In this document: positions 1 through 37,061 of the stretch, piece after piece | Numbering within the stretch: position 1 is the stretch's first letter | Layout: every line of letters begins with the position of its first letter | Source: an uncultured virus (IMG/VR IMGVR_UViG_3300026196_000001) | Taxonomy: Duplodnaviria; Heunggongvirae; Uroviricota; Caudoviricetes | Length of the DNA stretch: 64,000 nucleotides | IMG/VR virus record: IMGVR_UViG_3300026196_000001 | Direction: 5' to 3' (one strand) | The notes under the pieces: generated by a model | Seen by the model: only the letters and a program-made list of their open reading frames with translations | Told to the model about the DNA's origin: nothing | The model's database searches: none | Translations under genes and position numbers: made by a program

Positions 1-1107
1 CCTGGCGAGTGCTTCAGGCTCTTCGGCTATGCCGGGACCGGGAAGTCCACGATCGCCAAGCTCTTCCCGACGATCGCACCTGGGCGGGTGCTTTATGCTG
101 CCTACACCGGCAAGGCCGCTCACGTGCTGACCAGGAAGGGATGCCCTGCCACCACCATCCACCGCCTGATCTACAAGCCACGTGAGCGGGGATCCTACCA
201 CCTGCGCAAGCTGGAGGAGGGCTTGACTGTCGCCCTGGAAGCAGGGGACGGCAGGAAGGTCCGCAAGCTGGAGAACCTCATACGCCTGGAGAAGGAGAAA
301 CTCAAGTCCCCCACGTGGGACCGCAACGACCACTCGGAGCTACAGGAGGCGTCACTGCTGGTCCTCGACGAGGTCTCAATGGTCGGGCAGCAGCTCGGCC
401 GCGACCTCCTGTCCTACGGCACTCCAGTCCTCGCCCTCGGCGACCCTGGGCAGTTGCCGCCGATCGGATCCGTCGGCGGGTTTTTCACCGACCACGAGCC
501 CAACGCCATGCTGACCGAGGTGCACCGGCAGGAGAAGGGCAGCGACGTGCTCGACCTCGCCACCAGCGTGCGCAAGGGGAACAGCCTCTCCCTCGGCCCC
601 TGCGTCGTGCGCAAGGGGACCACGAAGATCAGCGAGCTGGCGTCCTACGATCAGGTCCTGGTGGGCCGGAACAAGACGCGCAAGATCCTCAACACGCAGA
701 TCCGCCGTCACCTCGGGCTCTCTGGGCTGCCCAAGCCAGGGGATAAGCTGGTGTGCCTGCGCAACAACCACGACCTGGGGATCATGAACGGTTCCCAGTG
801 GACCGTGGCCGACAGCACCGAGTTGGGCAACGACCAGATCGCCCTGGAGCTGCGGGACGACGACAACACGAAGGTGGACGTCATCTCGTGGACCCAGCTG
901 TTCGAGAACCGCGAGGCCCCCTACCACAACCAGCGCGACGCCGAGCTGTTCGACTACGGCTACGCCATGACGGTGCACAAGGCCCAGGGCTCGCAGTGGG
1001 ACCGGGTCTACGTCGTCGACGAGAGCGCATCATTCAACAAGGACCGCAGCCGGTGGCTCTACACCGCCATCACGCGGGCCGCAGAAGAGGTGAGGATCAG
1101 CCTATGA
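1..1107 (+). CDS. RecD/Dda-like SF1B helicase (5' truncated)
   Basis: Frame open from base 1; Walker A GYAGTGKS, DEVSM, GDPGQLPP, YAMTVHKAQGSQW, LYTAITRA. Confidence 0.93.
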   Translation, partial: PGECFRLFGYAGTGKSTIAKLFPTIAPGRVLYAAYTGKAAHVLTRKGCPATTIHRLIYKPRERGSYHLRKLEEGLTVALEAGDGRKVRKLENLIRLEKEKLKSPTWDRNDHSELQEASLLVLDEVSMVGQQLGRDLLSYGTPVLALGDPGQLPPIGSVGGFFTDHEPNAMLTEVHRQEKGSDVLDLATSVRKGNSLSLGPCVVRKGTTKISELASYDQVLVGRNKTRKILNTQIRRHLGLSGLPKPGDKLVCLRNNHDLGIMNGSQWTVADSTELGNDQIALELRDDDNTKVDVISWTQLFENREAPYHNQRDAELFDYGYAMTVHKAQGSQWDRVYVVDESASFNKDRSRWLYTAITRAAEEVRISL

Positions 1108-2789
1108 TTGGCCCGAAGACCGAGTTCGCAAAGAACCTGACCCAGGACCGACTGTGCCAGCCCACCGAGGGCTTCGCCGCCTCCATGGGCAGGATCGCCA
1201 CAGCACTCGCGCCGGACATGCACAGCCGTGTGCAGCTGCACGAGGCCCTGCTCAACCAGCGCTTTATCCCTGGCGAGCGCATCCAGCGCTACCTCGGAGT
1301 CAGGGACGACAACATCGCCCTGAGTGGTGTGATGAGCGGAGAGGTCTTCGACAACTTCGGCTCAGCCCTGGATCGGGCAGAGCAGGCCGCAGAGATCTTC
1401 CGTGCCGGAGGTCGAGTGGGGATCGACTTCACCGAGCTGCGCCCAAGAGGGGACCGGATCTTCCGCGGTGGGAACCGCTCCGCCGGGCCCGTGTCGATCA
1501 TGTCCTTCTTCAGTGCGGTGCGCCAGTGCTTCAGCAACGTGGAGCCCGCGAACGGCGCGTTGACGGCGACCCTACGCATCGACCACCCAGACATCATGGA
1601 GTTCATCCTCGCCAAGCAGAACGTCCACGGGTGCGACGCCTTCCGGACCGTGGTCGGCGTGACCGACGAGTTCATGACCGCGCTGGCCAACGGTAAGAAG
1701 TTCGACCTCCGCTGGGGCGGGCACGTCTACTCGACCGTGGACCCGGCCGAGATCTGGGAAATGCTCATGCAGAGCGTCTGGGCGTGGTCCGAGCCACAGG
1801 TCCTGTTCCTCGACACTGTGAACCGCCGGAACAGCCTCGGCTACAAGGAGAACATCACCGCCCTGAGCCCGGTGGGGGAGCAGCCGATCGCGGCGTTCGG
1901 GTCGTCCGTCCTGGGCAACCTGAACCTCACCAAGTATCTCTGCGTCGACAACACGGAGTTCGACTACTACGCCTTCGAGCGTGACATCCACGTCGCCGTG
2001 CGCGCGCTGGATTGCGCGCTGGACGTGATCCACCACCCAACCGACATCCACCGACTGGTCAAGGACCGGAAGCGCCCGATCGGGCTGGGGGTCACTGGTC
2101 TCGCGAACACCATCGAGTCGCTCGGAGCGCCCTACGGCTCGCAGGAGTTCCTCACGTGGACGGTGAGCCTGCTGTCGTTCCTGACGAACAACGCCTACCG
2201 CGCCTCGATCGAGCTGTCCCGAGAGCTTGGGCCGTTCGACGACCTGAACCGCGAGCTGTTCCTGAAGCCCGGCACGTTCGCAGCAGGGCTGCCGGAGGAC
2301 ATCCGACATGGGATCATGCGCCACGGGATCCGCAACAGCCGCCTGACCTGCATCTACCCCTGCTCCCTCACGAGCCTCGCCGCGGACAACGTCTCCCAGG
2401 GCATCGAGCCCGTCACAGACATCATGTCCAGGCGCGTCGTGAACACGCCGCAGGGCCCGCTGCGCGTGGACGTGCCCGACTACGGACAGCTCTTCCTGGG
2501 GACCACACCGAAGGTCCTGGCGGACTGCACGCCGGAGGACCACATGGAGGTGTTCCTGGCCGCGTCTCGCAACGTGGACGGCGGCGTCACGAAGAGCATC
2601 GTGGTCACCCCCGACACGGACTGGTGTGACTTCCAAGCGATATTCGTTCGGGCCTGGGAGGGAGGCGCAAAGAACTGCGCAGTCTACCAGACCGAATCCA
2701 GACGGTTCGGCATCCTGCAACGCCCCGAGGATGCTGCCGCGTGCTACGTAGACCCAAAGAAGCCCGGGAGGGCAGACGACGATGAGTGA
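1104..2789 (+). CDS. Class II (NrdJ-like) ribonucleotide reductase homolog with catalytic residues substituted
   Basis: ATGA overlap with helicase; LRPRG, GPVS, DHPDI.EFI, VTDEFM, IGLGVTG, GIRNS, SQGIEP collinear with phage NrdJ; TNPCGE site reads LSPVGE. Confidence 0.9.
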   Translation: MIGPKTEFAKNLTQDRLCQPTEGFAASMGRIATALAPDMHSRVQLHEALLNQRFIPGERIQRYLGVRDDNIALSGVMSGEVFDNFGSALDRAEQAAEIFRAGGRVGIDFTELRPRGDRIFRGGNRSAGPVSIMSFFSAVRQCFSNVEPANGALTATLRIDHPDIMEFILAKQNVHGCDAFRTVVGVTDEFMTALANGKKFDLRWGGHVYSTVDPAEIWEMLMQSVWAWSEPQVLFLDTVNRRNSLGYKENITALSPVGEQPIAAFGSSVLGNLNLTKYLCVDNTEFDYYAFERDIHVAVRALDCALDVIHHPTDIHRLVKDRKRPIGLGVTGLANTIESLGAPYGSQEFLTWTVSLLSFLTNNAYRASIELSRELGPFDDLNRELFLKPGTFAAGLPEDIRHGIMRHGIRNSRLTCIYPCSLTSLAADNVSQGIEPVTDIMSRRVVNTPQGPLRVDVPDYGQLFLGTTPKVLADCTPEDHMEVFLAASRNVDGGVTKSIVVTPDTDWCDFQAIFVRAWEGGAKNCAVYQTESRRFGILQRPEDAAACYVDPKKPGRADDDE

Positions 2790-3021
2790 AGAGACCCCGC
2801 CGATCATCAAGAGCCAGATGCGCAAGCCATGCGGCTGCATCATCACCGAGCTATCCAACGAGACCACGCAGATGTCCCCATGCGTCCCCTGCGGGATGAT
2901 GGAGGCCGCCCGCGCCCTCGCCAGCGTCGGGCAGATCCTCGCCGCTGTCGCCACCCGGATGCGGGTGGAGCGCGACAGCACGGACATCGACGTGGCCGTG
3001 AAGAAGAGCCTGGAGTCCTGA
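2782..3021 (+). CDS. Hypothetical protein, Cys motifs (PCGC, CxxC)
   Basis: Tiles between neighbours with overlapping start/stop. Confidence 0.7.
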   Translation: MSEETPPIIKSQMRKPCGCIITELSNETTQMSPCVPCGMMEAARALASVGQILAAVATRMRVERDSTDIDVAVKKSLES

Positions 3022-3845
3022 TGGACCTATTCGAGTTCGCGAACGAGCGCGAAGGTGTGCGCCTCATGAGGAAGATCGGGGTCCCCGAGCCGTGGTCCGA
3101 GGACCGCCGCCTCCAGCTCTACCACTTCACGAACATCTTCCGCGAGGACGACCCCACCTCGCAGTGGATCTACGACAACCTGCTCTACGAGGTGCGCTAC
3201 AACCCGGAGCACCTGTTCCGGAACGCCCTGGTCGGGCGTCTGTTCAACAACGTCGTCCCGCTGGAGCGTATCAAGCACATGATGCTGTGCGGCTGGGACG
3301 AGGATGAGATGTTCGATGTCCTTCGTCGTCGCCCAGGAGACCTCCACCCCAGCTGGCGTTTCAGCGGTCACTACCGCGCCCGACTGAAGGCAGGCACCAC
3401 TCGACTGGAGCAGGTCGCTCTGGCAGTGCGGCACGCCGACTCGAAGCAGGTGTGGCGGGTCACCCACTCCTCCACAAAAACCGCTCACTGGGCGATCTGC
3501 CAGCTTCCCCTAGGCGGCCCGCTCGTGGCGAACGAGATCGTCGCGGACCTGCAACGGTTCCCGAGCTTCTTCTGTGGTCAGCCCGACTGCGCCGTCCCCG
3601 AGCGCCACATCATGCGGGGGCTCGGTATCTGGGCTGGCAAGGGCCGGATCTCGCACGAGAAACTCTTCAAGGCACACCAGAAGCTGCGGGGTATACTTGA
3701 GGAGTCGCGCGACCGCTGGGACTACCCCGACCGGCCGTGGACTCTATCCACCGCAGCCCGAGCCGCGCTGCTCTACGGCCGCTACACCGACGACAACTAC
3801 AGGACCCTCCGCAGGGGCCTGAGAAAGGAGAGGATCGCAAGATGA
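3021..3845 (+). CDS. aGPT-Pplase1 / 5-hmdU DNA kinase helical-domain family protein (divergent)
   Basis: N-terminal F..ER....R..G.P.PWSED..LQ.YHFTNIFREDD signature; RLFN; EIVADL. Confidence 0.75.
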   Translation: MDLFEFANEREGVRLMRKIGVPEPWSEDRRLQLYHFTNIFREDDPTSQWIYDNLLYEVRYNPEHLFRNALVGRLFNNVVPLERIKHMMLCGWDEDEMFDVLRRRPGDLHPSWRFSGHYRARLKAGTTRLEQVALAVRHADSKQVWRVTHSSTKTAHWAICQLPLGGPLVANEIVADLQRFPSFFCGQPDCAVPERHIMRGLGIWAGKGRISHEKLFKAHQKLRGILEESRDRWDYPDRPWTLSTAARAALLYGRYTDDNYRTLRRGLRKERIAR

Positions 3846-4066
3846 GACGAATCGGAAACATGCCCGCGGATCGGGTCAAGTATCTGCTCAGGCGTCACAG
3901 CGCCCGTGCTGGCTTTCGGAAGTCCGGACCCGGCGTCCTGGTCAAGCTGCGCGACGCACTGCACAACATGACGCAGGAGCAGCGCGAGATCGCCCTGTCC
4001 GAGGGCTGGGATCGCGGCTTGCTCTACCGCGCCAAGGCAAGTGGCAAGCTGGGGGTGCGTCGATGA
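3842..4066 (+). CDS. Hypothetical basic protein
   Basis: ATGA overlap, upstream GGAGAGG. Confidence 0.65.
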   Translation: MRRIGNMPADRVKYLLRRHSARAGFRKSGPGVLVKLRDALHNMTQEQREIALSEGWDRGLLYRAKASGKLGVRR

Positions 4067-4208
4067 TCGTCGTCGCGAAATACCGCAAGCGGTCCAACGG
4101 AGGCCGCACGCTCACCTACTACAGGGATGTCCTGCTGTTCGGCTTCATCCTCATCCACCTCCTGGCCCGCAAGGGGCACAAGGCACTGCACGCGCGCAGG
4201 AGGCAGCG

Positions 4209-4661
4209 ATGAGCATGGACCGACCCCAGCTGCTGGAGCGACTGCGCAGCGACGGCCGCTTCCCTGACATGCTCAGCGTCGACGGGTGCGTCCGCTTGGA
4301 GACCAGAACCCCGCTCATCGCTGCGTCCTTCTACATCTATCCGCACCACGTGGTGATGGAGACGGCGGTAGACCGCAAGCACCCACAGGTGGTGTCGTTC
4401 TCCGACATGGACAAGCTCCTGAACCTGTGCGCGGATGACGGTCGGGCCTACCTCTACGTCGCATCCGGCTTCCCCGGCGTGGACTGCAACGGCACCAACG
4501 CCTGTGTGCTGGCGACCAGCTTCGCGGAAGCTGAGGCTGCCTTCCGGAAGGCCATCAACGAGAGCCGATACCTGCCGGGGATCAAGGACGGTGTGGTTCT
4601 CCCGATCCGCCGGATGGCACTTGGCGAGGTGGCGATCACCAACGAGGGCTACCTCAGCTAG
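4209..4661 (+). CDS. Hypothetical protein
   Basis: GGAGG RBS before ATG (MSMDRPQ...). Confidence 0.65.
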   Translation: MSMDRPQLLERLRSDGRFPDMLSVDGCVRLETRTPLIAASFYIYPHHVVMETAVDRKHPQVVSFSDMDKLLNLCADDGRAYLYVASGFPGVDCNGTNACVLATSFAEAEAAFRKAINESRYLPGIKDGVVLPIRRMALGEVAITNEGYLS

Positions 4662-4666
4662 TCTGT

Positions 4667-6679
4667 ATGCAGCTACCTTCCTTCTCACCCAAGATCTCGT
4701 GGACGGCCCCTGCTGTCCACACTCTCCCGTCGTGGGCAGACGCCAAGCGGCTGTGCATTGACGTCGAGACCAAGGACCCTCACCTCAAGGCCATGGGCCC
4801 GGGGGTGCGGACCGACGGCTACGTCATCGGGATTGGCGTCGCGATCGAGGACGGCCCGAAGTTCTACCTGCCGATCCGTCACGAAGGTGGCGGAAACCTC
4901 GACGAGGGCCACGTCTGGTCCTACTTGCGCGACAACGCCAAGGCCTTCAGGGGCACCGTGGTCCACGCCAACGGGCAATACGACCACGACTACCTGCTGG
5001 AGAACGACGTCGACCTGCTCCACTGCCGATGGTTCGATGTCCAGCTGGCCGACCCTTGCATCTACGAGCTGCACGACCGCTACAGCCTGGAACACATCGC
5101 GGAGCGCTTCGGTGTGCCCGGCAAGGACGAGACGCTGCTCCGCCACTGGGCCTCCGTCTACGGCATCAACCCGAAGTCTGGCATGTTCCGCCTCCCCGCC
5201 GGTGCCGTTGGTCCCTACGCCGAGCAGGACGTCGCGCTGCCCCTGGCCCTCGCGCGGATGCAGGAGGCCAAGATCAAGGAGCTTGGCCTGGAGAGGGTCT
5301 TCAAGCTGGAGTCAGAGTTGCAGCCGGTCCTGCTGAAGATGCGCCGCCGCGGCGTGGCCGTGAACCTCGATCGGCTGTCCGTGGTCCGCGAGATGGCGCA
5401 GGCCAGGGAGCGTGAGGTCCTGAATGAGATCACCCGTCGCACAGGGATCGGCCTCGGCCCGTCAGACGTCAACGCCAGCGCCTCCTGGGCACAGGTCCTG
5501 AAGAACATAGGCATCGAGGTTCCGCGCACGAAGCAGGGGAATCCGAGCGTGACGAAGGACCTGCTCAAGAGCATCAACCACCCCGTCGCCGATCTGATCC
5601 AGGAGGCCAAGCGCTACAACAAGCTCTACGGCACCTTCTGCTCCTCGGCCGAGCGGTTCACGGTCAACGGCCGGATCCACTGCACATTCAACCAGATGCG
5701 CACCAGCAAGGACGACGGCAGCGACGAAGAGAACGGCGCGAAGTATGGTCGCCTGTCGTGCGTGAACCCGAACCTTCAGCAGCAGCCCAGCCCGGACAAG
5801 GACCCGATCATCGGCAAGGCGATCCGCGACGTGTTCATCCCGGACGAGGGCGGCCAGTGGGCGTGCTTCGACTACAGCCAGCAGGAGCCCAGGTGGACCG
5901 TCCACTATGCAGAGCTGATCGGCGCGCGCGGGGCGAAGGCCGCCGCGGATATGTATCGCACCAACCCGCGCACCGACTACCACGGCATGGTTGCCACCAT
6001 GATCAACCCGAACTGGCCCAGCCTGGATGCCAAGAGCAAGAAGTCCCAGCGGTCCCAGTTCAAGGAGATCTCCCTCGGCAAAGCCTACGGGATGGGAGGA
6101 GCGAAGCTGTGCAGGCGGCTGCAACTGCCCACCAAGACCATCGTGCGCTACCAGAACCGCTGGATCCAGGGTGGCACACCGGAGGCCATGGACGCTCTCC
6201 GGGCAGGTGGCTTCGCGGTGGAGGTGGCCGGGGATGAGGGCTCGGAGGTGCTCCGGAAGTTCGACCGAGGCGTCCCCTACATCTCGGAGCTGGAGCTGCT
6301 CACCGAGCGCAACGCCATCAAGCGCGGCTACATCCGCACGGCCGGTGGTCGGCACTGCCACTTCCCGCGCCTCGCGAAGCCGAAGCATGTGAAGCGCCAG
6401 AATCTGATGACTGCGTTTGACTGGGTGCACAAGGCACTGAACCGCCTGATCCAGGGCAGCTCGGGCGACCAGATGAAGCAGGCCATGATCGACATCGACC
6501 GAGAGAACTTCCCACTACAACTCCAGGTCCACGACGAGGCGGACATGACGGTCTTCGACAGGCAGACCCTGCTCGACGTGCGCGATGTCATGCTGGACGC
6601 TGCCGAGTGCAGTGTGCCGCACCTCGTCGACGTGGAGACGGGCCCGAGCTGGGGCAGCTGCAAGGACGTAGAGCTATGA
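4667..6679 (+). CDS. polA: Family A DNA polymerase with 3'-5' exonuclease
   Basis: Exo DVE/NGQYD/YAEQD; GRLSCVNPNLQQ; motif A DYSQQEPR; motif B R...K....G..YG; motif C VHDE. Confidence 0.96.
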   Translation: MQLPSFSPKISWTAPAVHTLPSWADAKRLCIDVETKDPHLKAMGPGVRTDGYVIGIGVAIEDGPKFYLPIRHEGGGNLDEGHVWSYLRDNAKAFRGTVVHANGQYDHDYLLENDVDLLHCRWFDVQLADPCIYELHDRYSLEHIAERFGVPGKDETLLRHWASVYGINPKSGMFRLPAGAVGPYAEQDVALPLALARMQEAKIKELGLERVFKLESELQPVLLKMRRRGVAVNLDRLSVVREMAQAREREVLNEITRRTGIGLGPSDVNASASWAQVLKNIGIEVPRTKQGNPSVTKDLLKSINHPVADLIQEAKRYNKLYGTFCSSAERFTVNGRIHCTFNQMRTSKDDGSDEENGAKYGRLSCVNPNLQQQPSPDKDPIIGKAIRDVFIPDEGGQWACFDYSQQEPRWTVHYAELIGARGAKAAADMYRTNPRTDYHGMVATMINPNWPSLDAKSKKSQRSQFKEISLGKAYGMGGAKLCRRLQLPTKTIVRYQNRWIQGGTPEAMDALRAGGFAVEVAGDEGSEVLRKFDRGVPYISELELLTERNAIKRGYIRTAGGRHCHFPRLAKPKHVKRQNLMTAFDWVHKALNRLIQGSSGDQMKQAMIDIDRENFPLQLQVHDEADMTVFDRQTLLDVRDVMLDAAECSVPHLVDVETGPSWGSCKDVEL

Positions 6680-7584
6680 GCTACCACGCCGACACGTTCG
6701 TGCTCACGCCCGACGGGTGGAAGCGCATCAGCGATGTCACCTACGACGACCGCGTTGCAGAGATGCACGACGGGGAGCTGGTGTTCTCGCAGCCGGTCGA
6801 CATCAGCAGTCGCAACTTCAGCGGGCAGCTCATCAACGTCGAGGCCCGCAACTACGGGTTCACGGTCACTCCAGAGCACGGCGTGCCCGCGCAGAACCGC
6901 AAGACCGGGGACGAGAGCATCGTCCGGGCCGACGACATGCACACAACCAAGAACCACCTGCTGCATGTCTCTGCTCCGCTTGCGCCTCGCGACCACGAGA
7001 TCCACGACCCAGACTTCGCCCGCATCGCCGGGATGCTGCGGTCCAACCTTTTGCGGATCACCCGCCGCCAGATGACCGTGCGGATCCTACTGTCGACGCT
7101 GCGTCCCTACCTGATCTCGCTGATGGACAAAGCGGGCGTCCACTACGTGCAGGACGATGCCCGGTTCTTGCTCGCCAAGCACCCGCGCCTGATGACCTAC
7201 TTCACGTTCCACGGGAGGCTCCGTCGGTCCACCCTCCTTGCTCTCGACGCCGAGAGCAAGCGCATGTTTGTCCAAGGGGCCATCAGCTGGAAGGCCCGCA
7301 TCCGCCCGCCCTCCTTCCCCACCTACATCACCCGTTTCCCGCCCGAAGACGTGGCCGTGGTCCACGAGCTGTGCGCCCTCGCTGGGCTCTCCAGCACGGA
7401 AAGGGCCGCCGGTGACGGGTGGCTGGAGGTAAAAGTCCGACCGGAACAGAAAAATCTCCTCCCTCCCCGCAAAAATGTGTTACCCTACTCAGGTAGGGTC
7501 TACAACCTCTTCACGCCCAGTGGGACCCTTCTCACCAGAAACCTCACCCGACAAGCCCTCATAGGAGACGGAAGCCATGTCTGA
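6676..7584 (+). CDS. Free-standing intein-derived (Hint + degenerate LAGLIDADG) protein
   Basis: Block A SYHADTFVLTPDGWK, block B TVTPEH, block F/G YSGRVYNLFTPSGTLLTR...IGD; no exteins. Confidence 0.8.
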   Translation: MSYHADTFVLTPDGWKRISDVTYDDRVAEMHDGELVFSQPVDISSRNFSGQLINVEARNYGFTVTPEHGVPAQNRKTGDESIVRADDMHTTKNHLLHVSAPLAPRDHEIHDPDFARIAGMLRSNLLRITRRQMTVRILLSTLRPYLISLMDKAGVHYVQDDARFLLAKHPRLMTYFTFHGRLRRSTLLALDAESKRMFVQGAISWKARIRPPSFPTYITRFPPEDVAVVHELCALAGLSSTERAAGDGWLEVKVRPEQKNLLPPRKNVLPYSGRVYNLFTPSGTLLTRNLTRQALIGDGSHV

Positions 7585-8110
7585 CCTGATGCTCGACCTC
7601 GAAACCCTCGGCAACGGCAACGACGCCGCGATCGTCTCGATCGGTGCCTGCGTATTCAACCCCTTCGGCGGGGAGATCACGGAGCTGTTCTACCGGACGA
7701 TCGACCTGGAGATCTCATCCCACCCAGGGGACCTGGATCCAGGCACCGTGCTCTGGTGGCTCAAGCAGGACGAGGCGGCCCGCAAGGCGCTGACCGACCC
7801 GAAGCAGCACGAGACGCTCCCGCTCGGTGAGGCACTGAACCAGCTCAGGGGCTTCATAATCGCCAATGATGCCAACCGCCTCTGGAGCAACGGCCCGACG
7901 TTCGATGAGGTCATCATCCGCAGTGCGTTCCGCCGCTACGAAATGGAGTTCCCGATCCCCTTCTTTGGCAGCCGCTGTGTGCGCACGGTCAGGGGCCTGC
8001 CCAACGCACCGAAGGCGAAGCCTGTGCATGGGACCGCGCACAACGCGCTCGACGACGCCGTCTCCCAGGCCAAGCACGTGCAGGAGATCTACAGGAGTCT
8101 GGTGCGATGA
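7577..8110 (+). CDS. DEDDh 3'-5' exonuclease (DUF5051-like)
   Basis: MLDLETLG, WSNGPTFD, HNALDDA. Confidence 0.9.
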   Translation: MSDLMLDLETLGNGNDAAIVSIGACVFNPFGGEITELFYRTIDLEISSHPGDLDPGTVLWWLKQDEAARKALTDPKQHETLPLGEALNQLRGFIIANDANRLWSNGPTFDEVIIRSAFRRYEMEFPIPFFGSRCVRTVRGLPNAPKAKPVHGTAHNALDDAVSQAKHVQEIYRSLVR

Positions 8111-8409
8111 GTGAGAGGAAAAATGTCGTAGCTGTCAAGTTCTACCACGCCGGGTTCGGGGTGGTCCGCGTGGTCCAGGAGGACTACACCGGTGCCCGCA
8201 ACCTCGTGGTGCAGATCCAGCACAAGAGCATCATGAATGAGCCTCACTGGGTCAACGCCACTAGGGCTGAAGCTGAGGCCATCATGCCTATAGCCTTCAA
8301 CCATCTTGCGGCGGAACTAGCTGCGACTAAGTCTAGGCTGGAGGACACCCAAAAGAAGCTATCCAACGCACTGCTACCAACAGCAACCGACATGAGGACG
8401 ACGACATGA
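8107..8409 (+). CDS. Hypothetical protein (small paralog family)
   Basis: ATGA overlap; resembles 8406 and 16498 ORFs. Confidence 0.7.
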   Translation: MSERKNVVAVKFYHAGFGVVRVVQEDYTGARNLVVQIQHKSIMNEPHWVNATRAEAEAIMPIAFNHLAAELAATKSRLEDTQKKLSNALLPTATDMRTTT

Positions 8410-8645
8410 TCAAATACCCACGAGTCATCATCAAGCTGGATTGCCTCCATGACGGACCTGTCCGCATAGTCCAACGCACCGAAGGAGTCCCATCCATGGA
8501 TGTAGAGATCATGACGAAGGACTCCATGGGGATGCTTCGCTGGGTCGATGTCGACATGGACTCACCACTGAGATCCCAGGCGTTCCGGCTGGCCCTAATG
8601 CAACTTGCTGACTCCCTGCACACTGCGCGAGGTGGTGAGCTGTGA
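8406..8645 (+). CDS. Hypothetical protein (small paralog family)
   Basis: ATGA overlap; VE....DSMG...W motif. Confidence 0.7.
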   Translation: MIKYPRVIIKLDCLHDGPVRIVQRTEGVPSMDVEIMTKDSMGMLRWVDVDMDSPLRSQAFRLALMQLADSLHTARGGEL

Positions 8646-8893
8646 GGCGACTGGTCCGATTCCTGCTGTTCCCGGTGCCCTATCTGCTGTTCCCGCTGAT
8701 GGCGCTCTACGTCATCTTCGTGCAGCCGTTCACCATCACCATCCCAGCAGCCAAGCAACTTCGTCAGGCATACCCACAGCTCCGGTCGCGACCGCTCTGG
8801 AGGTGCGTCCTACGTGGAATGCACTACCACTTCAAGTGGCTGATCGACGCCACGCGCCAGTGGCCGTCTACCTGGAAGAGGAGCCTCAACTAG
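8642..8893 (+). CDS. Small membrane protein
   Basis: N-terminal hydrophobic segment; GTGA overlap. Confidence 0.65.
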   Translation: MRRLVRFLLFPVPYLLFPLMALYVIFVQPFTITIPAAKQLRQAYPQLRSRPLWRCVLRGMHYHFKWLIDATRQWPSTWKRSLN

Positions 8894-9298
8894 GTGAGTG
8901 GAGAGGCGAGACTACGGAGGGAGGTGGTGCGACTTCTGAAGTCACTCGACGCCCAGCCGGTGGAGAACATCGTGCGCGCCGGGACCCCGGACGTCGAGTA
9001 TCATGGAGGGTGGATCGAGGTCAAGCGCACGAAGTCCTGGCCTGCACGGCCTGACACTCCTGTGAAGCTGGAGCACGACCTCACTCCCGGCCAGCGCCGA
9101 TGGATCCGCAGACGTGAGCGCGTGGGCGGCACCGTCTGGGTCCTGGTGCAGATCGACAGAGCCTACCTCCTGCTCAAGGGCGGCGACGCTGCCCGCTGGA
9201 TCGGAGAGGCAAACAGACGAGAGCTGATCGCGCACGCCCACAAGGTGTGCCTTGGGCTCGCAGAACTGAGAAGGAACCTGCTTGCATGGGTGAGTTGA
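8894..9298 (+). CDS. PD-(D/E)xK nuclease, VRR-NUC/Holliday junction resolvase-like
   Basis: GTPDV...WIEVK, Q..W....G motif. Confidence 0.8.
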   Translation: MSGEARLRREVVRLLKSLDAQPVENIVRAGTPDVEYHGGWIEVKRTKSWPARPDTPVKLEHDLTPGQRRWIRRRERVGGTVWVLVQIDRAYLLLKGGDAARWIGEANRRELIAHAHKVCLGLAELRRNLLAWVS

Positions 9299-13079: not shown

Positions 13080-13436
13080 ATGATCTCCACCTACATGCTC
13101 ATCGCTGTCGCAATCATCTTCGTCGTGGCCCTGGTAGTCATCTACTTCGTGTCAGGGCACAGCTCGAACATCACCATCGAAGAGAGGGACGACGAGGACG
13201 TCCTGTTCGTCGGTGGCCCGTCCGGGCCTGGGCAGCTCCACACGATCCCGAAGGGCTCCGACGCCTGGAGCATCGACGGCCACATCCTGTTCGTCCGGGG
13301 GCGGAAGTGGGTGCTGCTGGGCAGGGGAGTCTACGAGATCGTCACGTTCTTCTACCCGGAAGGGTTGAGCGAGGACGACCACTTCCTGAAGGTCCTGGAA
13401 TACCGAGGAATCCCCTACGAGGTCATCGACTCATGA
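13080..13436 (+). CDS. Membrane-anchored hypothetical protein
   Basis: N-terminal TM helix. Confidence 0.7.
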   Translation: MISTYMLIAVAIIFVVALVVIYFVSGHSSNITIEERDDEDVLFVGGPSGPGQLHTIPKGSDAWSIDGHILFVRGRKWVLLGRGVYEIVTFFYPEGLSEDDHFLKVLEYRGIPYEVIDS

Positions 13437-13888
13437 GCCACACCAACAAGGACACCAACCCGAAGGACGCTGTCGGCTCGAAGAAGGTGCCGATGTCACG
13501 CGTCCCAGTCGCCCCGCTCCTGGAGGTTGCTGCCTCCTTGCACGAAGGGCACGTCAAGGGCTACCGCGGCCACAACTGGCGCATCGCCGGAGTCCGGGCC
13601 TCGATCTACTACGACGCCGCCCACAGGCACCTGATGGCGTGGTGGGAGGGCCAGGACATCGACCCCGACAGTGGGCTCTCACACATCTCGAAGGCCATCG
13701 CTGGGCTCTTCGTCCTGCGCGACGCCATGATCCACGACAACTGGACCGACGACCGTCCGCCCAAGACTCCGGAGGAGTTCCTGGCCGAGATCCAAGCGGC
13801 CATGGACGAAGTCAATCGCCGCTACCCCAACCCCGAAGAGGGGCCATACACGGAGGTGAACGATGGTAAATCCGCTCAGGGTCGGTGA
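13433..13888 (+). CDS. dATP/dGTP diphosphohydrolase domain protein (DUF5664)
   Basis: TNPKDAVGSKK, G..KGY..HNWR, YYDAAHRHL.AWW.G.D.DPDSGLSH. Confidence 0.88.
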   Translation: MSHTNKDTNPKDAVGSKKVPMSRVPVAPLLEVAASLHEGHVKGYRGHNWRIAGVRASIYYDAAHRHLMAWWEGQDIDPDSGLSHISKAIAGLFVLRDAMIHDNWTDDRPPKTPEEFLAEIQAAMDEVNRRYPNPEEGPYTEVNDGKSAQGR

Positions 13889-25926: not shown

Positions 25927-26010
25927 GAAAATCTCCGTTGTTTTTGCGAGTGCCACCCCACCCTGCGCGGAGCAGCGGTCCCTCAAGTATACCATGGCAT
26001 CGGCATCTTG

Positions 26011-33784: not shown

Positions 33785-34393
33785 TCACTCTGCGGCCGGA
33801 GCGGCGCGATCGTGGACAATGAGGCACTTCTCCCGCCAGCTGGCCTCCTTGTCGTAGCGCCCCTCCCGGATCCGCCGGACCTGGGCAAGGGTGATCCTGA
33901 ACCTGCGGGCCATGATCTCGTCGCTGACGGCCGTGTTCCGCTGGATGTAGCCGACGTAGGAGAGGCGCAGCTTCCCGTCCTTGAACACGAGGTCCTGCCA
34001 CTCTGGGCGGTAGAACCAGTCCAGGACGGTCCCCGGAGCCTTGCGCGTGGTCCAGAAGAGATTCTCCGCGCGGCAGTCCCCCCGGTTCCCGTTCCGCCAT
34101 CCGGGCACATGCCCCTCGGGCCGTGGTCCGACAAACGTCTCCAGGACCAGCTCGGCGACGCTCCACATCCTCATCTCGTTCCGCATGAGGTTCATGGGGT
34201 TGAGATTGATGGTCACGACCGGGTGTCCGTTGTTGAAGGCCCAGCGCAGCCGCTTCCCCACGCCCAAGGACCCTTTGATCATGGTCCGCTGGTCGTAGGG
34301 GTTGATGTGGCCGATGCCTTTGCCGATGCGGCGGACGTAGCCCCGGTCGGAGATGCAGTATCGGCTCTGCCTGATCTGTCGGTGTTGTTCCAT
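33785..34393 (-). CDS. NUMOD4/HNH homing-endonuclease-derived protein, nuclease motif degenerate
   Basis: Y.ISD.G.VR; LVLETFVGPRPEG...WRNGNRGDCRAENL.W; C-terminal HTH-like segment. Confidence 0.75.
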   Translation of the reverse strand: MEQHRQIRQSRYCISDRGYVRRIGKGIGHINPYDQRTMIKGSLGVGKRLRWAFNNGHPVVTINLNPMNLMRNEMRMWSVAELVLETFVGPRPEGHVPGWRNGNRGDCRAENLFWTTRKAPGTVLDWFYRPEWQDLVFKDGKLRLSYVGYIQRNTAVSDEIMARRFRITLAQVRRIREGRYDKEASWREKCLIVHDRAAPAAE

Positions 34394-34421
34394 GCCCTAT
34401 CATACCACAGCGGAGGGGCTG

Positions 34422-37061
34422 GTGTCTGAGAATCTTTCCCAGGAGGAGCTGATCAAGCGCGCCCTGGCCAACCCGGCCGAGGCCCGGAAGGCCCTGGACA
34501 TGGTCGACTGCGCGGACAGCCTGATCACGTTCATCAAGCAGGCGTGGCACACGATCGAGCCCGGGACCCCGTTCACGTCGGGGTGGGCCGTGGACTGCAT
34601 GGCCCGGCACCTGGAGGCGGTGACCGACGGGCAGATCAAGCGCCTGCTGATCAACGTCCCGCCGGGTCCCATCCCGGCCGGTCAACTGGTCATGACTGCC
34701 GCTGGACGTAAACCCATCGAAGACCTGACGACAGAGGACAGGGTCCTGACGCACAAGGGTAGATACCGCAGGGTCACTGAGCTGCACGACCAAGGTGTTC
34801 TGCCAACACTGGAGATCAGCACCTTCTCGGGACGAACGATCAGGTGTGCGCCGTCGCACCCGCTTCTGACACCAAGGGGATGGGTCAAGGCCCAGGATAT
34901 TCGGGAGGGGGATTTTCTGGCTATAGTGTCCCCAACCGAGGACCACGGTTCTCGGGACAAGGTCACGGCTGAGGAGGCTAGATTCTTCGGCTACCTAGTC
35001 GGAGATGGGTCGGTGACTCAGGCGATGCCCACTCTGACGAACCAGGACTGGGACACTATCGAAGACTTCAGACACTGCGCAAAATCCATAGGGTTCGAGA
35101 CATCCATCTCGAAATACGAAGGCAGGACAGCCTGGACTGTCAGGGTGAAAGGCGGAAAGAGGGTCAGGGACTATCTGAGTAAACACGAGCTACAAGGCAA
35201 GAGTAGCTACACCAAGCGCATCCCACCAGCAGTCCTTGAATCATCGCGCGAGATCATCCGGAACTTCATCGGTGCCTACTGGTCGTGCGATGGTCAAATC
35301 ACTGTCCGTGATAGCCGAAAACGCGGGTCCATCTACAGGGCCAACTGCTCAACTGTGTCAAGAGGTCTGGCTGAGGACTTGCTTCATGCAGTGTCCTTGA
35401 TTGGTATCCGTGGGCGTCTACGCCTAAGGTCAAATAAGCGTGCAACCAAAGCTCAGCCATCTGGTGACTACAAGTATTTCATGATCGAGGTGCAGAACGA
35501 GGTTGACACAGCCAGGTTCGCAACCCTCCCTCGGCTCACAGAACGCAAGAGAGTGCTTGCAGAGAAGTGCCGCCAGCGGTTCGATCAGACCCTCTGGGAG
35601 GATGAGGTGTCTAGAATCACTAAACACGAGTTGGCCAGCTGCTACTGTATCACAGTGGATGAGGACCATTCGTTCACTGTTTCTGATCTAGCAGTGAAAA
35701 ACTGCACGAAGAGTGTTTTGGTGAACACCTTCTGGCCAGCTTGGGAGTGGGGTCCCAAGGGACTCCCACATCACCGGTTCATATCCGCGAGCTATGAACG
35801 AGGGCTGGCGACCCGCGACATGATCCGCTGCCGTGACATCATCCAGGACAACTGGTTCCAGGACCGATGGCCGCTGGCCTTCAAGGACGACCAGTCGGAG
35901 AAGACGTTCTACGCCAACACGTCGACGGGGTGGCGCTTCGCATCGTCGGTCGGCGGACGGCTGACCGGCTACCGCGGTGACAGGATCATCATCGACGACC
36001 CGCACGACACGAAGGGCGCGGAATCGGACCTCGTGCGCGCGACCGCGACCAGGTGGTTCACGGAGACCCTGCCCACGCGCCTGAACAAGGCGTCGGAGTC
36101 GGCCATGGTCATGATCATGCAGCGGCTGCACGTGCATGACCTGAGCGGTATCATCCTGGACAAGCTCGGCGACGAGTGGACGCACCTCGTGCTGCCCATG
36201 GAGTTCGAGAAGAAGAACCGCAGCTTCACGACGGTGCCAGGGAAGTTCCCGGCGCAGCGCATGCGGCGCATCAAGGAGGACGCCGACCCGGTGCCCTACT
36301 TCGAGCCGGACCCGGAGAACGGTGAGCTGCTCTACCTCCAGGACGAGCGGACCGAGGAGGGGGAGCTTTTGTGGGAGGAGCGCTTCAACCGCGAGGCGGT
36401 CGAGAGCCTGAAGAGGGCGTTCCGATCGGGAGAGGGGGGATCCTACGCGGAGAGCGGCCAGCTCCAGCAGAGGCCAGTGCACCGCGAGGGTGGGATGTTC
36501 AAGCGCAGCGACTTCCACCTGACCACGGAGATCCCGCCCGGCTGCCGCTGGGTGCGCAGCTGGGACCTCGCGGGTTCGACCAAGAAGCGGTCCGACTGGA
36601 CCGTGGGGCTGAAGCTCGGCATGAAGGGAGGCGTGCTCTACATCTGGGACGTGGTTCGGTTCAAGGGGGAATCCCATGAGGTGGAGCAACGGATCCTGGA
36701 GACGGCCCAGCTGGACGGCCTCGGAGTCGCGATCTCCATCCCGCAGGACCCCGGTCAGGCAGGCAAGGACCAGAAGCGACACTACGCTTCCCTGCTCGGC
36801 GGGTTTGACCTCCACTTCTCACCGGAGAGCGGCGACAAGCTCGTGCGCGCGAAGCCCGTCGCTGGGCAGGTCGGGGGCGGGAACGTCTTCGTGCGGGAGG
36901 ATGCGCCGTGGCTGATGGCCTTCCTCGCCGAGATCGGGCTGTTCCCGGCCGCCGTCTGGGACGATCAGGTCGACGCCCTCTCCCGGGCCTACGCCTACTT
37001 CCTAGCCAACGAGGGCGATCCGGAGGGGGATGCCATTGGCGCACCGTCGATCTGCTACTAG
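34422..37061 (+). CDS. terL: Terminase large subunit (intein-containing)
   Basis: INVPPG|CTKS Walker A after splicing; IIIDDP; MQRLH; SWDLA, DPGQAG, DDQVDA; GTG start with GGAGG (alternative ATG 34392). Confidence 0.95.
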   Translation: MSENLSQEELIKRALANPAEARKALDMVDCADSLITFIKQAWHTIEPGTPFTSGWAVDCMARHLEAVTDGQIKRLLINVPPGPIPAGQLVMTAAGRKPIEDLTTEDRVLTHKGRYRRVTELHDQGVLPTLEISTFSGRTIRCAPSHPLLTPRGWVKAQDIREGDFLAIVSPTEDHGSRDKVTAEEARFFGYLVGDGSVTQAMPTLTNQDWDTIEDFRHCAKSIGFETSISKYEGRTAWTVRVKGGKRVRDYLSKHELQGKSSYTKRIPPAVLESSREIIRNFIGAYWSCDGQITVRDSRKRGSIYRANCSTVSRGLAEDLLHAVSLIGIRGRLRLRSNKRATKAQPSGDYKYFMIEVQNEVDTARFATLPRLTERKRVLAEKCRQRFDQTLWEDEVSRITKHELASCYCITVDEDHSFTVSDLAVKNCTKSVLVNTFWPAWEWGPKGLPHHRFISASYERGLATRDMIRCRDIIQDNWFQDRWPLAFKDDQSEKTFYANTSTGWRFASSVGGRLTGYRGDRIIIDDPHDTKGAESDLVRATATRWFTETLPTRLNKASESAMVMIMQRLHVHDLSGIILDKLGDEWTHLVLPMEFEKKNRSFTTVPGKFPAQRMRRIKEDADPVPYFEPDPENGELLYLQDERTEEGELLWEERFNREAVESLKRAFRSGEGGSYAESGQLQQRPVHREGGMFKRSDFHLTTEIPPGCRWVRSWDLAGSTKKRSDWTVGLKLGMKGGVLYIWDVVRFKGESHEVEQRILETAQLDGLGVAISIPQDPGQAGKDQKRHYASLLGGFDLHFSPESGDKLVRAKPVAGQVGGGNVFVREDAPWLMAFLAEIGLFPAAVWDDQVDALSRAYAYFLANEGDPEGDAIGAPSICY
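34668..35702 (+). mobile_element. 345-aa intein with LAGLIDADG endonuclease, Pro1
   Basis: PIPAGQLVMT...CAPSHP...GYLVGDG...GAYWSCDG...CYCITV..DHSF...VKN/C; lower GC. Confidence 0.93.

What the first reader, a model, noticed from the sequence alone, without database searches (positions are those of the whole stretch)
1104..7584. Cluster of three intact but catalytically eroded genes around active helicase and PolA
Within 6.5 kb the RNR homolog, the aGPT-Pplase1-like gene and an intein-derived gene all keep full reading frames and start/stop coupling. Each has lost its catalytic motifs, while the flanking helicase, PolA and exonuclease keep theirs. A fourth case is the HNH at 33785. Neutral decay deep enough to erase so many motifs would usually leave stops or frameshifts. 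Inference: a domesticated pseudoenzyme module (replisome accessories or decoys). This is my best candidate for an undescribed system.
Basis: inference. Interest (0 to 1): 0.8.

Follow-up and report, generated by a model that had tools for sequence, protein, structure and literature searches.

The report
Dead RNR and tamed intein in phage
A soil phage's DNA-replication operon carries a ribonucleotide reductase copy that has lost its chemistry, a stand-alone former intein that is still kept by selection, and an orphan DNA-modification protein, but these look like three separate stories, not one new system.

Summary
The observation largely holds; the "module" reading does not.

(1) RNR homolog, 1104-2789. 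It has lost all three catalytic cysteines, and 51 of 154 family-invariant residues are changed. All 109 aligned homologs keep the cysteines. The loss is specific to this lineage and sits on a 3.5-fold lengthened branch. The frame is open and the RNR fold is predicted intact.

(2) aGPT-Pplase1-like gene, 3021-3845. It is a PF18723 protein from a seven-member subfamily that lacks two canonical motifs. It occurs here without the thymidine-hypermodification genes. Its branch is not lengthened in this phage. No catalytic motif is defined for PF18723, so "lost its catalytic motifs" cannot be claimed.

(3) Intein-like ORF, 6676-7584. It is a free-standing intein (Hint plus LAGLIDADG). The endonuclease acidic residues and the terminal Asn are replaced. 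Eight sequences share this state. It sits after PolA in the closest relative too, with dN/dS 0.37, like its neighbours.

Relatives appear to combine (2) and (3) with an intact RNR, so the three do not travel as a dead set.

Best reading: three independent non-catalytic derivatives in a PaMx11/M6-like replication operon. The intein derivative is the clearest domestication, probably a DNA-binding protein. No expression data were found, and no complex prediction could be run.

The parts
1..1107 (+). Dda/RecD-like SF1 helicase, 3' part. The full gene is 391 codons in the identical contig L001.
   Evidence: AAA_30 4.3e-24, UvrD_C_2 5.1e-18. phrog_325 1.3e-86. L001 933-2108.
1104..2789 (+). RNR large-subunit homolog (class II-like, 561 aa) without the three catalytic cysteines: a pseudo-RNR.
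   Evidence: PF02867 1.8e-63. T. maritima NrdJ 1xje 1.5e-37 with alignment. Motif columns. 51 of 154 invariant columns changed. Branch 0.94 against 0.26-0.27. Atlas model pTM 0.89, TM 0.94-0.95 to RNR models.
2782..3021 (+). 79-codon Cys-rich ORF, coupled to both neighbours, no family match.
3021..3845 (+). Stand-alone PF18723 protein (HMUDK_hel; the 'aGPT-Pplase clade 1' of the papers) of a divergent orphan subfamily.
   Evidence: PF18723 2.7e-16, covering profile positions 7-194 of 281. Five relatives at 40-46% identity. Alignments. Tree.
3842..4066 (+). 74-codon ORF. Its C-terminal 30 residues are 73% identical in the relative L093.
4209..4661 (+). 150-codon ORF with no family match, and no relative found in any fetched locus.
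4667..6679 (+). Family A DNA polymerase with an N-terminal 3'-5' exonuclease region and the polymerase motifs intact. The last 67 codons are mosaic relative to the closest relative.
   Evidence: PF00476 2e-41. phrog_17 2.8e-92. A3 alignment. Segment identities.
6676..7584 (+). Free-standing intein-derived protein (Hint + LAGLIDADG, 302 aa). Splicing and nuclease residues are replaced.
   Evidence: 643 hits, two of them free-standing and full-length. Alignments. Same position in L082. dN/dS 0.37. Foldseek top hits are HE-associated inteins, 8.6e-8. Atlas TM 0.82-0.87 to intein parts.
7577..8110 (+). Rv2179c-like DEDDh 3'-5' exonuclease.
   Evidence: PF16473 8.9e-46. phrog_255 7e-52.
33785..34393 (-).
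   Evidence: PF13392 1.1e-8. Alignment with RpY1 and Rumpelstiltskin gp91.
34353..37061 (+). Large terminase carrying a bona fide intein with a LAGLIDADG domain. It is not closely related to the free-standing one.
   Evidence: LAGLIDADG_3 1.5e-13, Terminase_6C, and Intein_splicing 1.4e-8 (35.1 bits, just under its 35.8-bit cut-off). blastp to the free-standing protein E = 0.012.

Best explanation
The stretch is the nucleotide-metabolism and replication operon of a high-G+C tailed phage. Its gene order matches PaMx11/M6-like phages: helicase, RNR, a thymidine-modification slot, PolA, a small helicase-like gene, primase. It holds three non-catalytic derivatives with three separate histories.

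(a) The RNR. In this lineage only, it lost the thiyl-radical cysteine, the redox cysteine pair and the phosphate-binding loop, and then evolved about 3.5 times faster. It kept an open frame, coding-type composition and a predicted RNR fold. It can no longer reduce ribonucleotides, so the phage must use host dNTP supply. I infer that it is retained for a binding or scaffolding role, or is at a late but still selected stage of loss.

(b) The PF18723 protein. It belongs to an old orphan subfamily that replaced two canonical motifs at its base. It lives without the kinase, hydroxymethylase and transferase genes that accompany canonical members. It is a conserved helical protein, probably HhH-type and DNA-binding, with an unknown role. 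It is not a locally eroded enzyme.

(c) The ORF after PolA. It encodes exactly an intein polypeptide, with Met followed by intein residue 1. Its endonuclease acidic residues and terminal Asn were replaced in the common ancestor of at least eight sequences, and it has since been under purifying selection. I infer a domesticated intein that works as a non-cleaving DNA-binding protein. It is probably the remnant of a homing element that once targeted the 3' end of PolA.

Shown: homologies, residue states, rates, synteny. Inferred: present functions.
For: RNR:
- Residue losses.
- 51 of 154 invariant columns changed, against 0-6 in ten other homologs checked.
- Branch from the common ancestor 0.94, against 0.26 and 0.27 for the two intact sisters, in a 22-sequence LG tree.
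- Expected nonsense mutations 4.8-13.9 for that excess.
- GC2 0.44 and GC3 0.88, like the neighbours.
- Atlas model pTM 0.89 with TM 0.94-0.95 over 546-556 residues to RNR models.

PF18723:
- 60.2 bits here against 141 bits for PaMx11 gp50.
- GPGAxRG and EHxLCExDKY are present in 7 canonical members and replaced in the 5 of 7 subfamily members aligned. The 7-row A1 alignment shows the same replacement segments.
- The canonical members checked (L004, L018, L050, L097, PaMx11) sit beside a thymidylate-synthase homolog. Some also have ADDT, a P-loop kinase, an FAD enzyme or TAGT nearby.
- None of these families was found among about 70 window ORFs scanned.
- The window branch is 0.70 against 0.71-1.21 for its sisters.
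- M6 gp55, the second aGPT-Pplase paralog (gp51 is the clade 2 transferase), was not needed for the in vitro reaction (PMC8989533, passages). Its assignment to PF18723 is my inference from its position beside the kinase gp54, matching PaMx11 gp49/gp50.

Intein-like:
- Full-length alignment to inteins of PolA, RNR large and RNR small subunits.
- Eight free-standing sequences with 70 invariant columns, TP[DE]H kept, Asn (7 of 8) and Lys/Arg/Asn at the two acidic positions, and an invariant terminal Asp-Gly.
- Same slot between PolA and the exonuclease in L082, whose PolA is 75% identical.
- dN/dS 0.37, and 0.28 for the LAGLIDADG part.
- The last 67 PolA residues are 54% identical against 77% for the rest. 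That ratio of 0.69 is below all 45 other pairs, whose minimum is 0.72.

Separate histories: contig-length matches place an intact RNR (P0003), a PF18723-like protein (P0126) and an intein-like protein (P0285) on one 67,233-base contig.
Against: - No second sequence of the dead RNR exists, so selection on it is inferred from rate and frame integrity only. With strong GC-biased mutation and a smaller neutral excess, P(no stop) rises to 0.12.
- The changed invariant positions are only marginally clustered (runs test P = 0.055).
- NG86 dN/dS values rest on one pair with dS near 1 and strong codon bias.
- The lower identity of the intein-like block may partly reflect recombination with a more distant lineage: dS is 0.94-1.37 against 0.56-0.75 for PolA and primase.
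- The same-contig claim rests on equal contig lengths, not on sequence in hand.
- The window is about 64 of about 70 kb, so a modification gene could lie outside it.
- My own fold models were poor (pLDDT 54 and 57).
Confidence: 0.6

Rival explanations
1. The three proteins form one domesticated pseudoenzyme module. They act together, with PolA and the helicase, as replisome accessories or as decoys for host defences.
For: - All three lie in one translationally coupled operon with no terminator-like site on the + strand between 480 and 12000.
- RNR and PF18723-like genes are neighbours in several relatives (L004, L018, L050, L052, L084, L085).
- The intein-like gene is coupled to PolA by an ATGA overlap.
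- Two of the three show signs of selection.
Against: - The dead RNR does not co-occur with the others elsewhere. The relatives that appear to carry the PF18723-like and intein-like genes have an intact RNR.
- The intein-like gene is absent from the other 32 of 34 PolA-anchored loci; it is present only in L082 and L092, which are the same contig.
- In L082 the intein-like gene is separated from PolA by about 270 nt.
- The operon order is simply that of PaMx11-like phages.
Confidence: 0.1
2. Neutral relics. The RNR-like gene, and possibly the other two, are recently inactivated genes on their way out. They stay open only because stop codons are rare in G+C-rich DNA.
For: - The genome is 64% G+C, and a 471-codon ORF lies on the opposite strand of the RNR gene.
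- One third of invariant RNR positions are already replaced.
- The phage lost the neighbouring modification cassette as well.
- P(no stop) reaches 0.12 under the most lenient model.
Against: - GC2 stays at 0.44 although GC3 is 0.88.
- No frameshift in 561 codons, and coupling is preserved at both ends.
- A confident full-length RNR fold is predicted.
- For the intein-like and PF18723-like genes, 8 and 7 diverged intact copies exist, and dN/dS is 0.37.
Confidence: 0.15
3. The proteins are still enzymes using non-canonical residues. The intein-like protein would be an active WHO/HO-type homing endonuclease for the PolA 3' end. The PF18723-like protein would be an active DNA-modifying or glycosylase-type enzyme.
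For: - The position directly downstream of PolA and the mosaic PolA 3' end match the WHO-element mechanism (PMC7282813, abstract).
- Block B TP[DE]H and many Hint residues are invariant.
- The PF18723 subfamily has 86 columns invariant in all seven members.
Against: - Both LAGLIDADG acidic positions are non-acidic in all 8 sequences.
- The two lineages compared are only 58% identical, so any homing is ancient.
- The subfamily lacks the only conserved Cys of canonical PF18723.
Confidence: 0.1

Closest known systems
Betaherpesvirus R1 homologs (HCMV UL45, MCMV M45)
   Same: A virus keeps a full-length RNR large-subunit homolog that is catalytically inactive and has been repurposed. PMC5469499 (abstract) calls UL45 an inactive homolog of the RNR large subunit. 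PMC12282084 (abstract) says herpesviruses have repurposed R1. Both were seen in the listing.
   Different: Here the homolog is a class II-like, B12-type phage protein. The loss is confined to one phage lineage, there is no added N-terminal interaction domain, and no function is known. My searches found no phage example in print.
Yeast HO / WHO elements (free-standing intein-derived genes)
   Same: An intein-like protein is encoded as its own gene, needs no splicing, and sits immediately downstream of a housekeeping gene whose 3' end shows a separate history (PMC7282813, abstract).
   Different: HO and WHO proteins are active endonucleases with a zinc-finger tail. Here both catalytic acidic residues are replaced in all 8 sequences. 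Only 2 of 8 have a C-terminal tail, and its HTH match is weak (E = 0.05).
WhiA-type LAGLIDADG-derived DNA-binding regulators
   Same: A LAGLIDADG fold without catalytic residues is kept as a protein under selection. The WhiA N-terminal LAGLIDADG domain 3hyj appears among the fold matches (rank 50, E 5.4e-3).
   Different: WhiA has no Hint domain and is cellular. The functional analogy is from recall and was not tested.
PF18723 proteins of thymidine-hypermodifying phages (PaMx11 gp50; M6 gp55 by position)
   Same: Same Pfam family and the same operon slot between RNR and PolA.
   Different: Canonical members score 141 bits over the full profile and sit beside the kinase, ADDT and thymidylate-synthase homologs. 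The window protein scores 60 bits over two thirds of the profile, lacks GPGAxRG and EHxLCExDKY, and has none of those partners.

Membership tests
Ribonucleotide reductase large subunit (class II-like, PF02867) | Homologous alpha/beta barrel domain | tested here: met
   PF02867 1.8e-63. 1xje 1.5e-37. Atlas structure TM 0.94-0.95.
Ribonucleotide reductase large subunit (class II-like, PF02867) | Thiyl-radical Cys and Asn in the finger-loop NPCGE motif | tested here: not met
   The window has SPVGE. 108 of 109 other homologs have N and C; the remaining row is truncated.
Ribonucleotide reductase large subunit (class II-like, PF02867) | Redox-active cysteine pair in the active site | tested here: not met
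   C75G and C268S. 109 of 109 others keep both.
Ribonucleotide reductase large subunit (class II-like, PF02867) | Conserved APTGT loop (its role in phosphate binding is recalled, not tested) and the C-terminal Cys | tested here: not met
   A418Y, T420C, G421S, T422L and C559D.
PF18723 (HMUDK_hel / aGPT-Pplase clade 1) | Pfam score above the gathering cut-off | tested here: met
   60.2 bits against 25.
PF18723 (HMUDK_hel / aGPT-Pplase clade 1) | Canonical motifs GPGAxRG and W..W.MREVEHxLCE[FY]DKY shared by members from hypermodifying phages | tested here: not met
   Replaced by PERHIMRGLG and DRPWTLSTAARAALLYGRY. The same kind of replacement occurs across the subfamily.
PF18723 (HMUDK_hel / aGPT-Pplase clade 1) | Genomic association with a 5-hmdU DNA kinase, a dUMP hydroxymethylase (TS homolog) and ADDT | tested here: not met
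   None among about 70 window ORFs scanned. About 6 kb of the genome lies outside the window.
PF18723 (HMUDK_hel / aGPT-Pplase clade 1) | A defined catalytic activity or residues | not testable with these tools
   The papers read assign no activity. M6 gp55, the second aGPT-Pplase paralog, was dispensable in vitro (PMC8989533).
Intein (homing-endonuclease-containing) | Hint fold with an inserted LAGLIDADG domain | tested here: met
   Full-length alignments to PolA and RNR inteins. Foldseek hits to VMA inteins 8.6e-8 and I-DmoI. Atlas TM 0.82-0.87.
Intein (homing-endonuclease-containing) | Embedded in frame within a host protein (exteins on both sides) | tested here: not met
   The ORF starts Met-Ser at intein residue 1 and ends 4 residues after the terminal Asp (5 after the Asn-equivalent position). 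The same holds in 8 sequences.
Intein (homing-endonuclease-containing) | C-terminal Asn followed by Cys/Ser/Thr | tested here: not met
   Asp-Gly is invariant in 8 of 8. The five true inteins aligned have GN followed by S or C.
Intein (homing-endonuclease-containing) | N-terminal Cys/Ser nucleophile and block B TxxH | tested here: inconclusive
   Ser in 7 of 8 and Gly in 1. TP[DE]H is invariant. With only Met upstream there is nothing to splice.
LAGLIDADG homing endonuclease | Acidic residue at the end of each LAGLIDADG motif | tested here: not met
   First motif: Asn in 7 of 8, Ser in 1. Second motif: Lys/Arg/Asn in 8 of 8.
HO/WHO-type free-standing intein-derived homing genes | Sits beside its target gene, whose 3' end is replaced on homing | tested here: inconclusive
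   The gene lies directly after PolA in 2 lineages. The PolA C-terminal identity ratio of 0.69 is below the 45 other pairs. No cleavage site is known.

The most novel reading that the evidence does not exclude
The free-standing intein family is a domesticated intein of phages. It would be a former PolA-targeting, WHO/HO-like homing element that lost cleavage and splicing and now serves as a sequence-specific DNA-binding factor of the replication operon or replisome. In this one lineage the pseudo-RNR and the orphan PF18723 protein would have been recruited in the same way, so that the operon carries a set of non-catalytic accessory proteins built from enzyme bodies.
Probability: 0.15. Interest if true: 0.75.

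Novelty: new variant of a known kind. Interest (0 to 1): 0.5.

Why it matters
- Inactive RNR homologs kept for other jobs are known from cytomegaloviruses. My literature searches found none described in a phage. This one gives a dated, lineage-specific case with intact sister genes for comparison.
- The free-standing intein family shows that an intein can survive as an ordinary gene under selection after losing both splicing and cleavage. The closest precedent is yeast HO/WHO. It offers a handle on how selfish elements are tamed in viruses.
- The orphan PF18723 subfamily shows that this still-uncharacterised partner of thymidine hypermodification can persist without the pathway. That argues it has a function of its own.

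Tried and rejected
- Complex prediction of PolA with the intein-like protein was never run.
- Sequencing runs: no RNA holder was listed. Two soil DNA runs hold the stretch and may be its source.
- The window's own assembly is not held. The nearest virus record, G001, does not cover this region.
- Megablast against phage records found only two matches of under 60 nt.
- My own AlphaFold models were of low confidence: PF18723-like pLDDT 54.3, not searched further; intein-like pLDDT 57.0.
- A profile search of the PF18723 subfamily against the PDB gave only weak OGG1 HhH matches (E 0.15-0.7).
- Attempts to fetch the sister-lineage contigs failed. A viral-contig scan with P0280 returned only L001. 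A genome-contig scan with P0126 gave two spurious short matches.
- The idea that the free-standing intein came from the phage's own TerL intein, or from inteins of the homologous RNRs, was rejected. blastp E-values were 0.012 or weaker, against 1e-15 to 1e-19 for other PolA and RNR inteins.
- A PolA-intein translational fusion was rejected. The two genes are in different frames here and about 270 nt apart in L082.
- The HNH protein has no PDB relative.
- The earlier-findings index had nothing for this genome or this sequence.
- timed out and was rerun with faster settings.

Full report
What the region is.

The window is a 64% G+C phage genome segment with nearly all genes on the + strand. An identical 13.5-kb IMG/VR contig (L001) extends it 1,001 bases upstream.

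From 1 to 11643 the genes are:
- a Dda/RecD-like helicase (1-1107)
- an RNR homolog (1104-2789)
- a 79-codon ORF
- a PF18723 protein (3021-3845)
- three small ORFs
- PolA (4667-6679)
- an ORF without a Pfam match (6676-7584)
- an Rv2179c-like exonuclease (7577-8110)
- small ORFs, a phrog_2165 gene and a primase

Consecutive genes overlap by ATGA, 8 nt or TGATG. No terminator-like site lies on the + strand between 480 and 12000. The order matches Pseudomonas phage PaMx11. There the slot between RNR and PolA holds the thymidine-hypermodification cassette (PMC8989533, passages read).

The RNR homolog.

The protein matches PF02867 (1.8e-63) and the Thermotoga maritima B12-dependent RNR (1xje, 1.5e-37). 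I aligned 110 of the 120 best homologs listed. Rows of 640 aa or more, and the last few of the list, were left out.
- The window protein has Gly, Val and Ser at the three cysteine columns and Ser for the finger-loop Asn.
- The other rows keep Cys in 109 of 109, 108 of 109 and 109 of 109 cases. The single miss is a truncated 485-aa row.
- 78 of 79 related IMG/VR loci also encode an NPC motif. The exception, L076, is a partial match.
- Of 154 columns at least 95% conserved in the other 109 rows, the window protein differs at 51. Ten other homologs that I checked differ at 0-6.
- The changes include the SxGxRR segment, the APTGT loop and the C-terminal Cys. At moderately conserved columns it matches the consensus at 118 of 243 positions, against 158-188 for four others.

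The nearest relatives, P0002 (52% identity) and P0003 (50%), are 85% identical to each other and catalytically intact. In an LG tree of 22 sequences the window branch from the common ancestor is 0.94 substitutions per site, against 0.26 and 0.27 for those two. The inactivation is therefore specific to this lineage and was followed by roughly 3.5-fold faster change.

Is it decaying neutrally?
- If the 0.68 excess substitutions per site had been neutral, 4.8-13.9 nonsense mutations are expected under three mutation spectra. That gives P(0) between 1e-6 and 8e-3, not counting indels. With an excess of only 0.3 and the strongest GC bias, P(0) rises to 0.12.
- GC2 and GC3 are those of functional neighbours.
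- The ESM Atlas model of this exact sequence is confident (pTM 0.89). It superposes on RNR models at TM 0.94-0.95 over 546-556 residues.
- Against this, the changed invariant positions are only marginally clustered (P = 0.055).
- There is no second dead copy for a dN/dS test. The protein's cluster has one sequence, seen on four contigs.

I conclude that it is a pseudo-RNR that cannot reduce nucleotides. It is probably still under selection for an intact protein, but a late stage of loss is not excluded.

A side observation concerns six longer homologs. In five of them the inteins sit exactly at these cysteines: P0069 and P0084 before the NPC Cys, and P0039, P0090 and P0096 at the NCF Cys. The insert in P0070 lies elsewhere.

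The PF18723 protein.

The score is 60.2 bits and covers profile positions 7-194 of 281. No other family appeared even at E up to 10. A search of the 5.8-billion-protein set gave only five relatives at 40-46% identity, all 259-271 aa. A further cluster member was added.

All seven members share 86 invariant columns, including an LPxxGPxxANEI(V/I/L)ADL segment. I read that segment as HhH-like. The PDB profile search gave only weak OGG1 matches (E 0.15-0.7).

I aligned five of the seven with PaMx11 gp50 and eight relatives from fetched loci.
- The seven canonical members (PaMx11 gp50, L004, L018, L050, L052, L086, L097) share GPGAxRG and W..W.MREVEHxLCE[FY]DKY.
- The subfamily has PHWGVMAGLG (PERHIMRGLG in the window) and DRPWT.TTAARAALLYGQY instead.
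- L084 and L085 form a second divergent group.
- The canonical members I checked sit next to a thymidylate-synthase homolog (L004, L018, L050, L097). Some also have ADDT (L050, L097), a P-loop kinase (L050), an FAD oxidoreductase (L097) or a TET-associated glycosyltransferase (L004, L018) nearby.
- None of these families was found in about 70 window ORFs scanned, out of the 99 from my crude caller. The unscanned ones are mostly short.
- The window protein's branch (0.70) is no longer than those of its sisters (0.71-1.21).

So the motif loss is old and shared by the whole subfamily. Whether the lost motifs are catalytic is unknown. M6 gp55 is the second aGPT-Pplase paralog of M6. I take it to be the PF18723 member because, like PaMx11 gp50, it sits beside the kinase. 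It was not needed for the reconstituted reaction (PMC8989533). The sister-lineage proteins share contig lengths with intact RNRs: 33,462, 17,874 and 7,890 for the P0002 cluster, and 67,233 for P0003.

The intein-derived gene.

The 302-aa product has no Pfam match. An exhaustive HMMER search found 643 proteins at E up to 0.001.
- Two of them are free-standing and match end to end: P0127 (56% identity, 303 aa) and P0128 (45%, 359 aa).
- The rest are segments of long proteins.
- The hosts of the full-length matches are PolA (P0231, P0257, P0189), RNR large subunit (P0222) and RNR small subunit (P0215).
- Among cultured phages, the 8 records covering at least 80% of the query are all RNR inteins of T5-like phages at about 22% identity. 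None is free-standing.

Alignment with five true inteins shows:
- Met followed directly by intein residue 1, which is Ser in place of Cys
- block B TPxH kept
- the motif-1 Asp replaced by Asn
- the motif-2 Asp replaced by Lys/Arg
- the terminal G-N followed by S or C replaced by G-D-G and a 3-5-residue tail

A profile search then raised the family to seven database proteins. With the L082 copy that makes eight aligned sequences, although P0283 is nearly the same as L082.
- 70 columns are invariant.
- Position 2 is Ser in 7 of 8 and Gly in 1.
- The first acidic position is Asn in 7 of 8 and Ser in 1. The second is Lys, Arg or Asn in all 8.
- The terminal Asp-Gly is invariant.
- Two members carry a roughly 60-aa C-terminal tail with a sub-threshold HTH_38 match (E = 0.05).

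My model was weak (pLDDT 57). Foldseek nevertheless ranked HE-associated VMA inteins (8.6e-8), PI-SceI and I-DmoI first. The Atlas's own model (pTM 0.76) superposes at TM 0.82-0.87 on intein parts of viral proteins.

In the closest relative found, L082 (the same contig as L092), PolA is 75% and the primase 79% identical. There the gene lies in the same slot between PolA and the exonuclease. It is absent from the other 32 PolA-anchored loci.

NG86 dN/dS between the two phages:
- intein-like gene: 0.37 (dN 0.39, dS 1.06)
- exonuclease: 0.35
- PolA: 0.25
- primase: 0.26
- orf8894: 0.24

The LAGLIDADG-like part is the most constrained, at 0.28. P0285, at 54% identity, is on a 67,233-base contig. 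That is the same length as the contig of the intact RNR P0003 and the PF18723-like P0126.

The last 67 PolA residues are 54% identical between the window and L082, against 77% for residues 1-603. This ratio of 0.69 is lower than in all 45 pairs of other relatives (median 0.99, minimum 0.72). The block from there to orf8894 also has higher dS, 0.94-1.37 against 0.56-0.75. This mosaic boundary at the PolA 3' end recalls yeast WHO elements. Those are free-standing intein-like homing genes that replace the 3' end of the neighbouring FBA1 gene (PMC7282813, abstract). Ordinary phage mosaicism would explain it as well.

The free-standing gene is not a copy of the phage's own terminase intein (E = 0.012).

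Putting it together.

- The RNR inactivation is unique to this phage.
- The PF18723 subfamily's divergence predates the split from lineages with an intact RNR.
- The intein-derived family also occurs with an intact RNR, and only in close relatives of this phage.

They are neighbours because all descend from the standard replication and nucleotide-metabolism operon. A joint module is not excluded, but nothing supports it. The PolA/intein-like complex prediction could not be run (see Tried and rejected), and no RNA data were found.

Mycobacteriophage Rumpelstiltskin gp91 shows the same Trp, so this too looks like a family trait.

What is known.

Inactive viral RNR homologs with new roles are established for cytomegalovirus UL45 and M45 (PMC5469499 and PMC12282084, abstracts in the listing). 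My searches for 'ribonucleotide reductase' with 'pseudoenzyme' (4 papers) showed no phage case. My search for free-standing, domesticated, stand-alone or derived inteins (22 papers) showed none either. These searches cover open-access text only. The Atlas lists viral 'hypothetical protein' clusters of 328-348 aa with 57-204 members as the nearest look-alikes of the intein-like protein. Free-standing intein-sized genes may therefore be commoner in phages than the eight sequences suggest. I could not inspect those clusters.

Verdict.

This is a new variant of known kinds: a viral pseudo-RNR and a domesticated intein-derived gene. Interest is moderate.

Noticed in passing
window 34353-37061 (+): The large terminase gene carries a genuine intein with a LAGLIDADG domain. 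The hits are LAGLIDADG_3 at 1.5e-13 and Intein_splicing at 1.4e-8 (35.1 bits, just under its 35.8-bit cut-off). This one phage therefore holds both an embedded intein and a free-standing intein derivative, and the two are not closely related (E = 0.012).
   Followed up: partly
window 33785-34393 (-): This HNH_3-family ORF overlaps the terminase start on the opposite strand. It has Trp where Ralstonia phage RpY1 HNH has the first His. Mycobacteriophage Rumpelstiltskin gp91 has the same Trp. 73 of the 77 matching phage records are mycobacteriophages.
   Followed up: partly
window 6476-6679 (PolA codons 604-670) through 9298: A mosaic block. The PolA 3' end, the intein-like gene, the exonuclease and orf8894 are 54-64% identical to L082, with dS of 0.94-1.37. 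The rest of PolA and the primase are 77-79% identical, with dS of 0.56-0.75.
   Followed up: partly
P0039, P0069, P0084, P0090, P0096 (RNR homologs of 859-912 aa): In five of six long homologs of this RNR, inteins are inserted exactly at the catalytic cysteines (NP|C and N|C). These are the same two residues that the window protein has lost.
   Followed up: partly
P0128 residues ~304-359; P0287 ~304-364: Two free-standing intein-like proteins carry a conserved C-terminal tail of about 60 aa. The tail in P0287 has a sub-threshold HTH_38 match (E = 0.05).
   Followed up: partly
window 13433-13888 and 14111-14467 (+): There is a dATP/dGTP diphosphohydrolase N-terminal domain protein (PF18909, 1.1e-24) and a DUF4406 protein. 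These are nucleotide-pool genes in a phage that has lost RNR activity.
   Followed up: no
L004 13970-14737; L018 5217-6044: These relatives have a canonical PF18723 gene and a thymidylate-synthase homolog. They also carry a TET-associated glycosyltransferase (PF20691) instead of ADDT, which hints at a different thymidine modification.
   Followed up: no
L093 366-1340: In a close relative (PolA N-terminus 77% identical), the space before PolA holds a 324-codon ORF with a KxDG-type motif. By eye it looks ligase- or nucleotidyltransferase-like. It takes the place of the window's orf4209, so this slot is variable.
   Followed up: no
window 18764-19321 (+) and 25300-25995 (-): There is a ClpP-family protease (2.1e-26) and, on the minus strand, a trypsin-like peptidase (1.6e-9), outside the structural module.
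   Followed up: no
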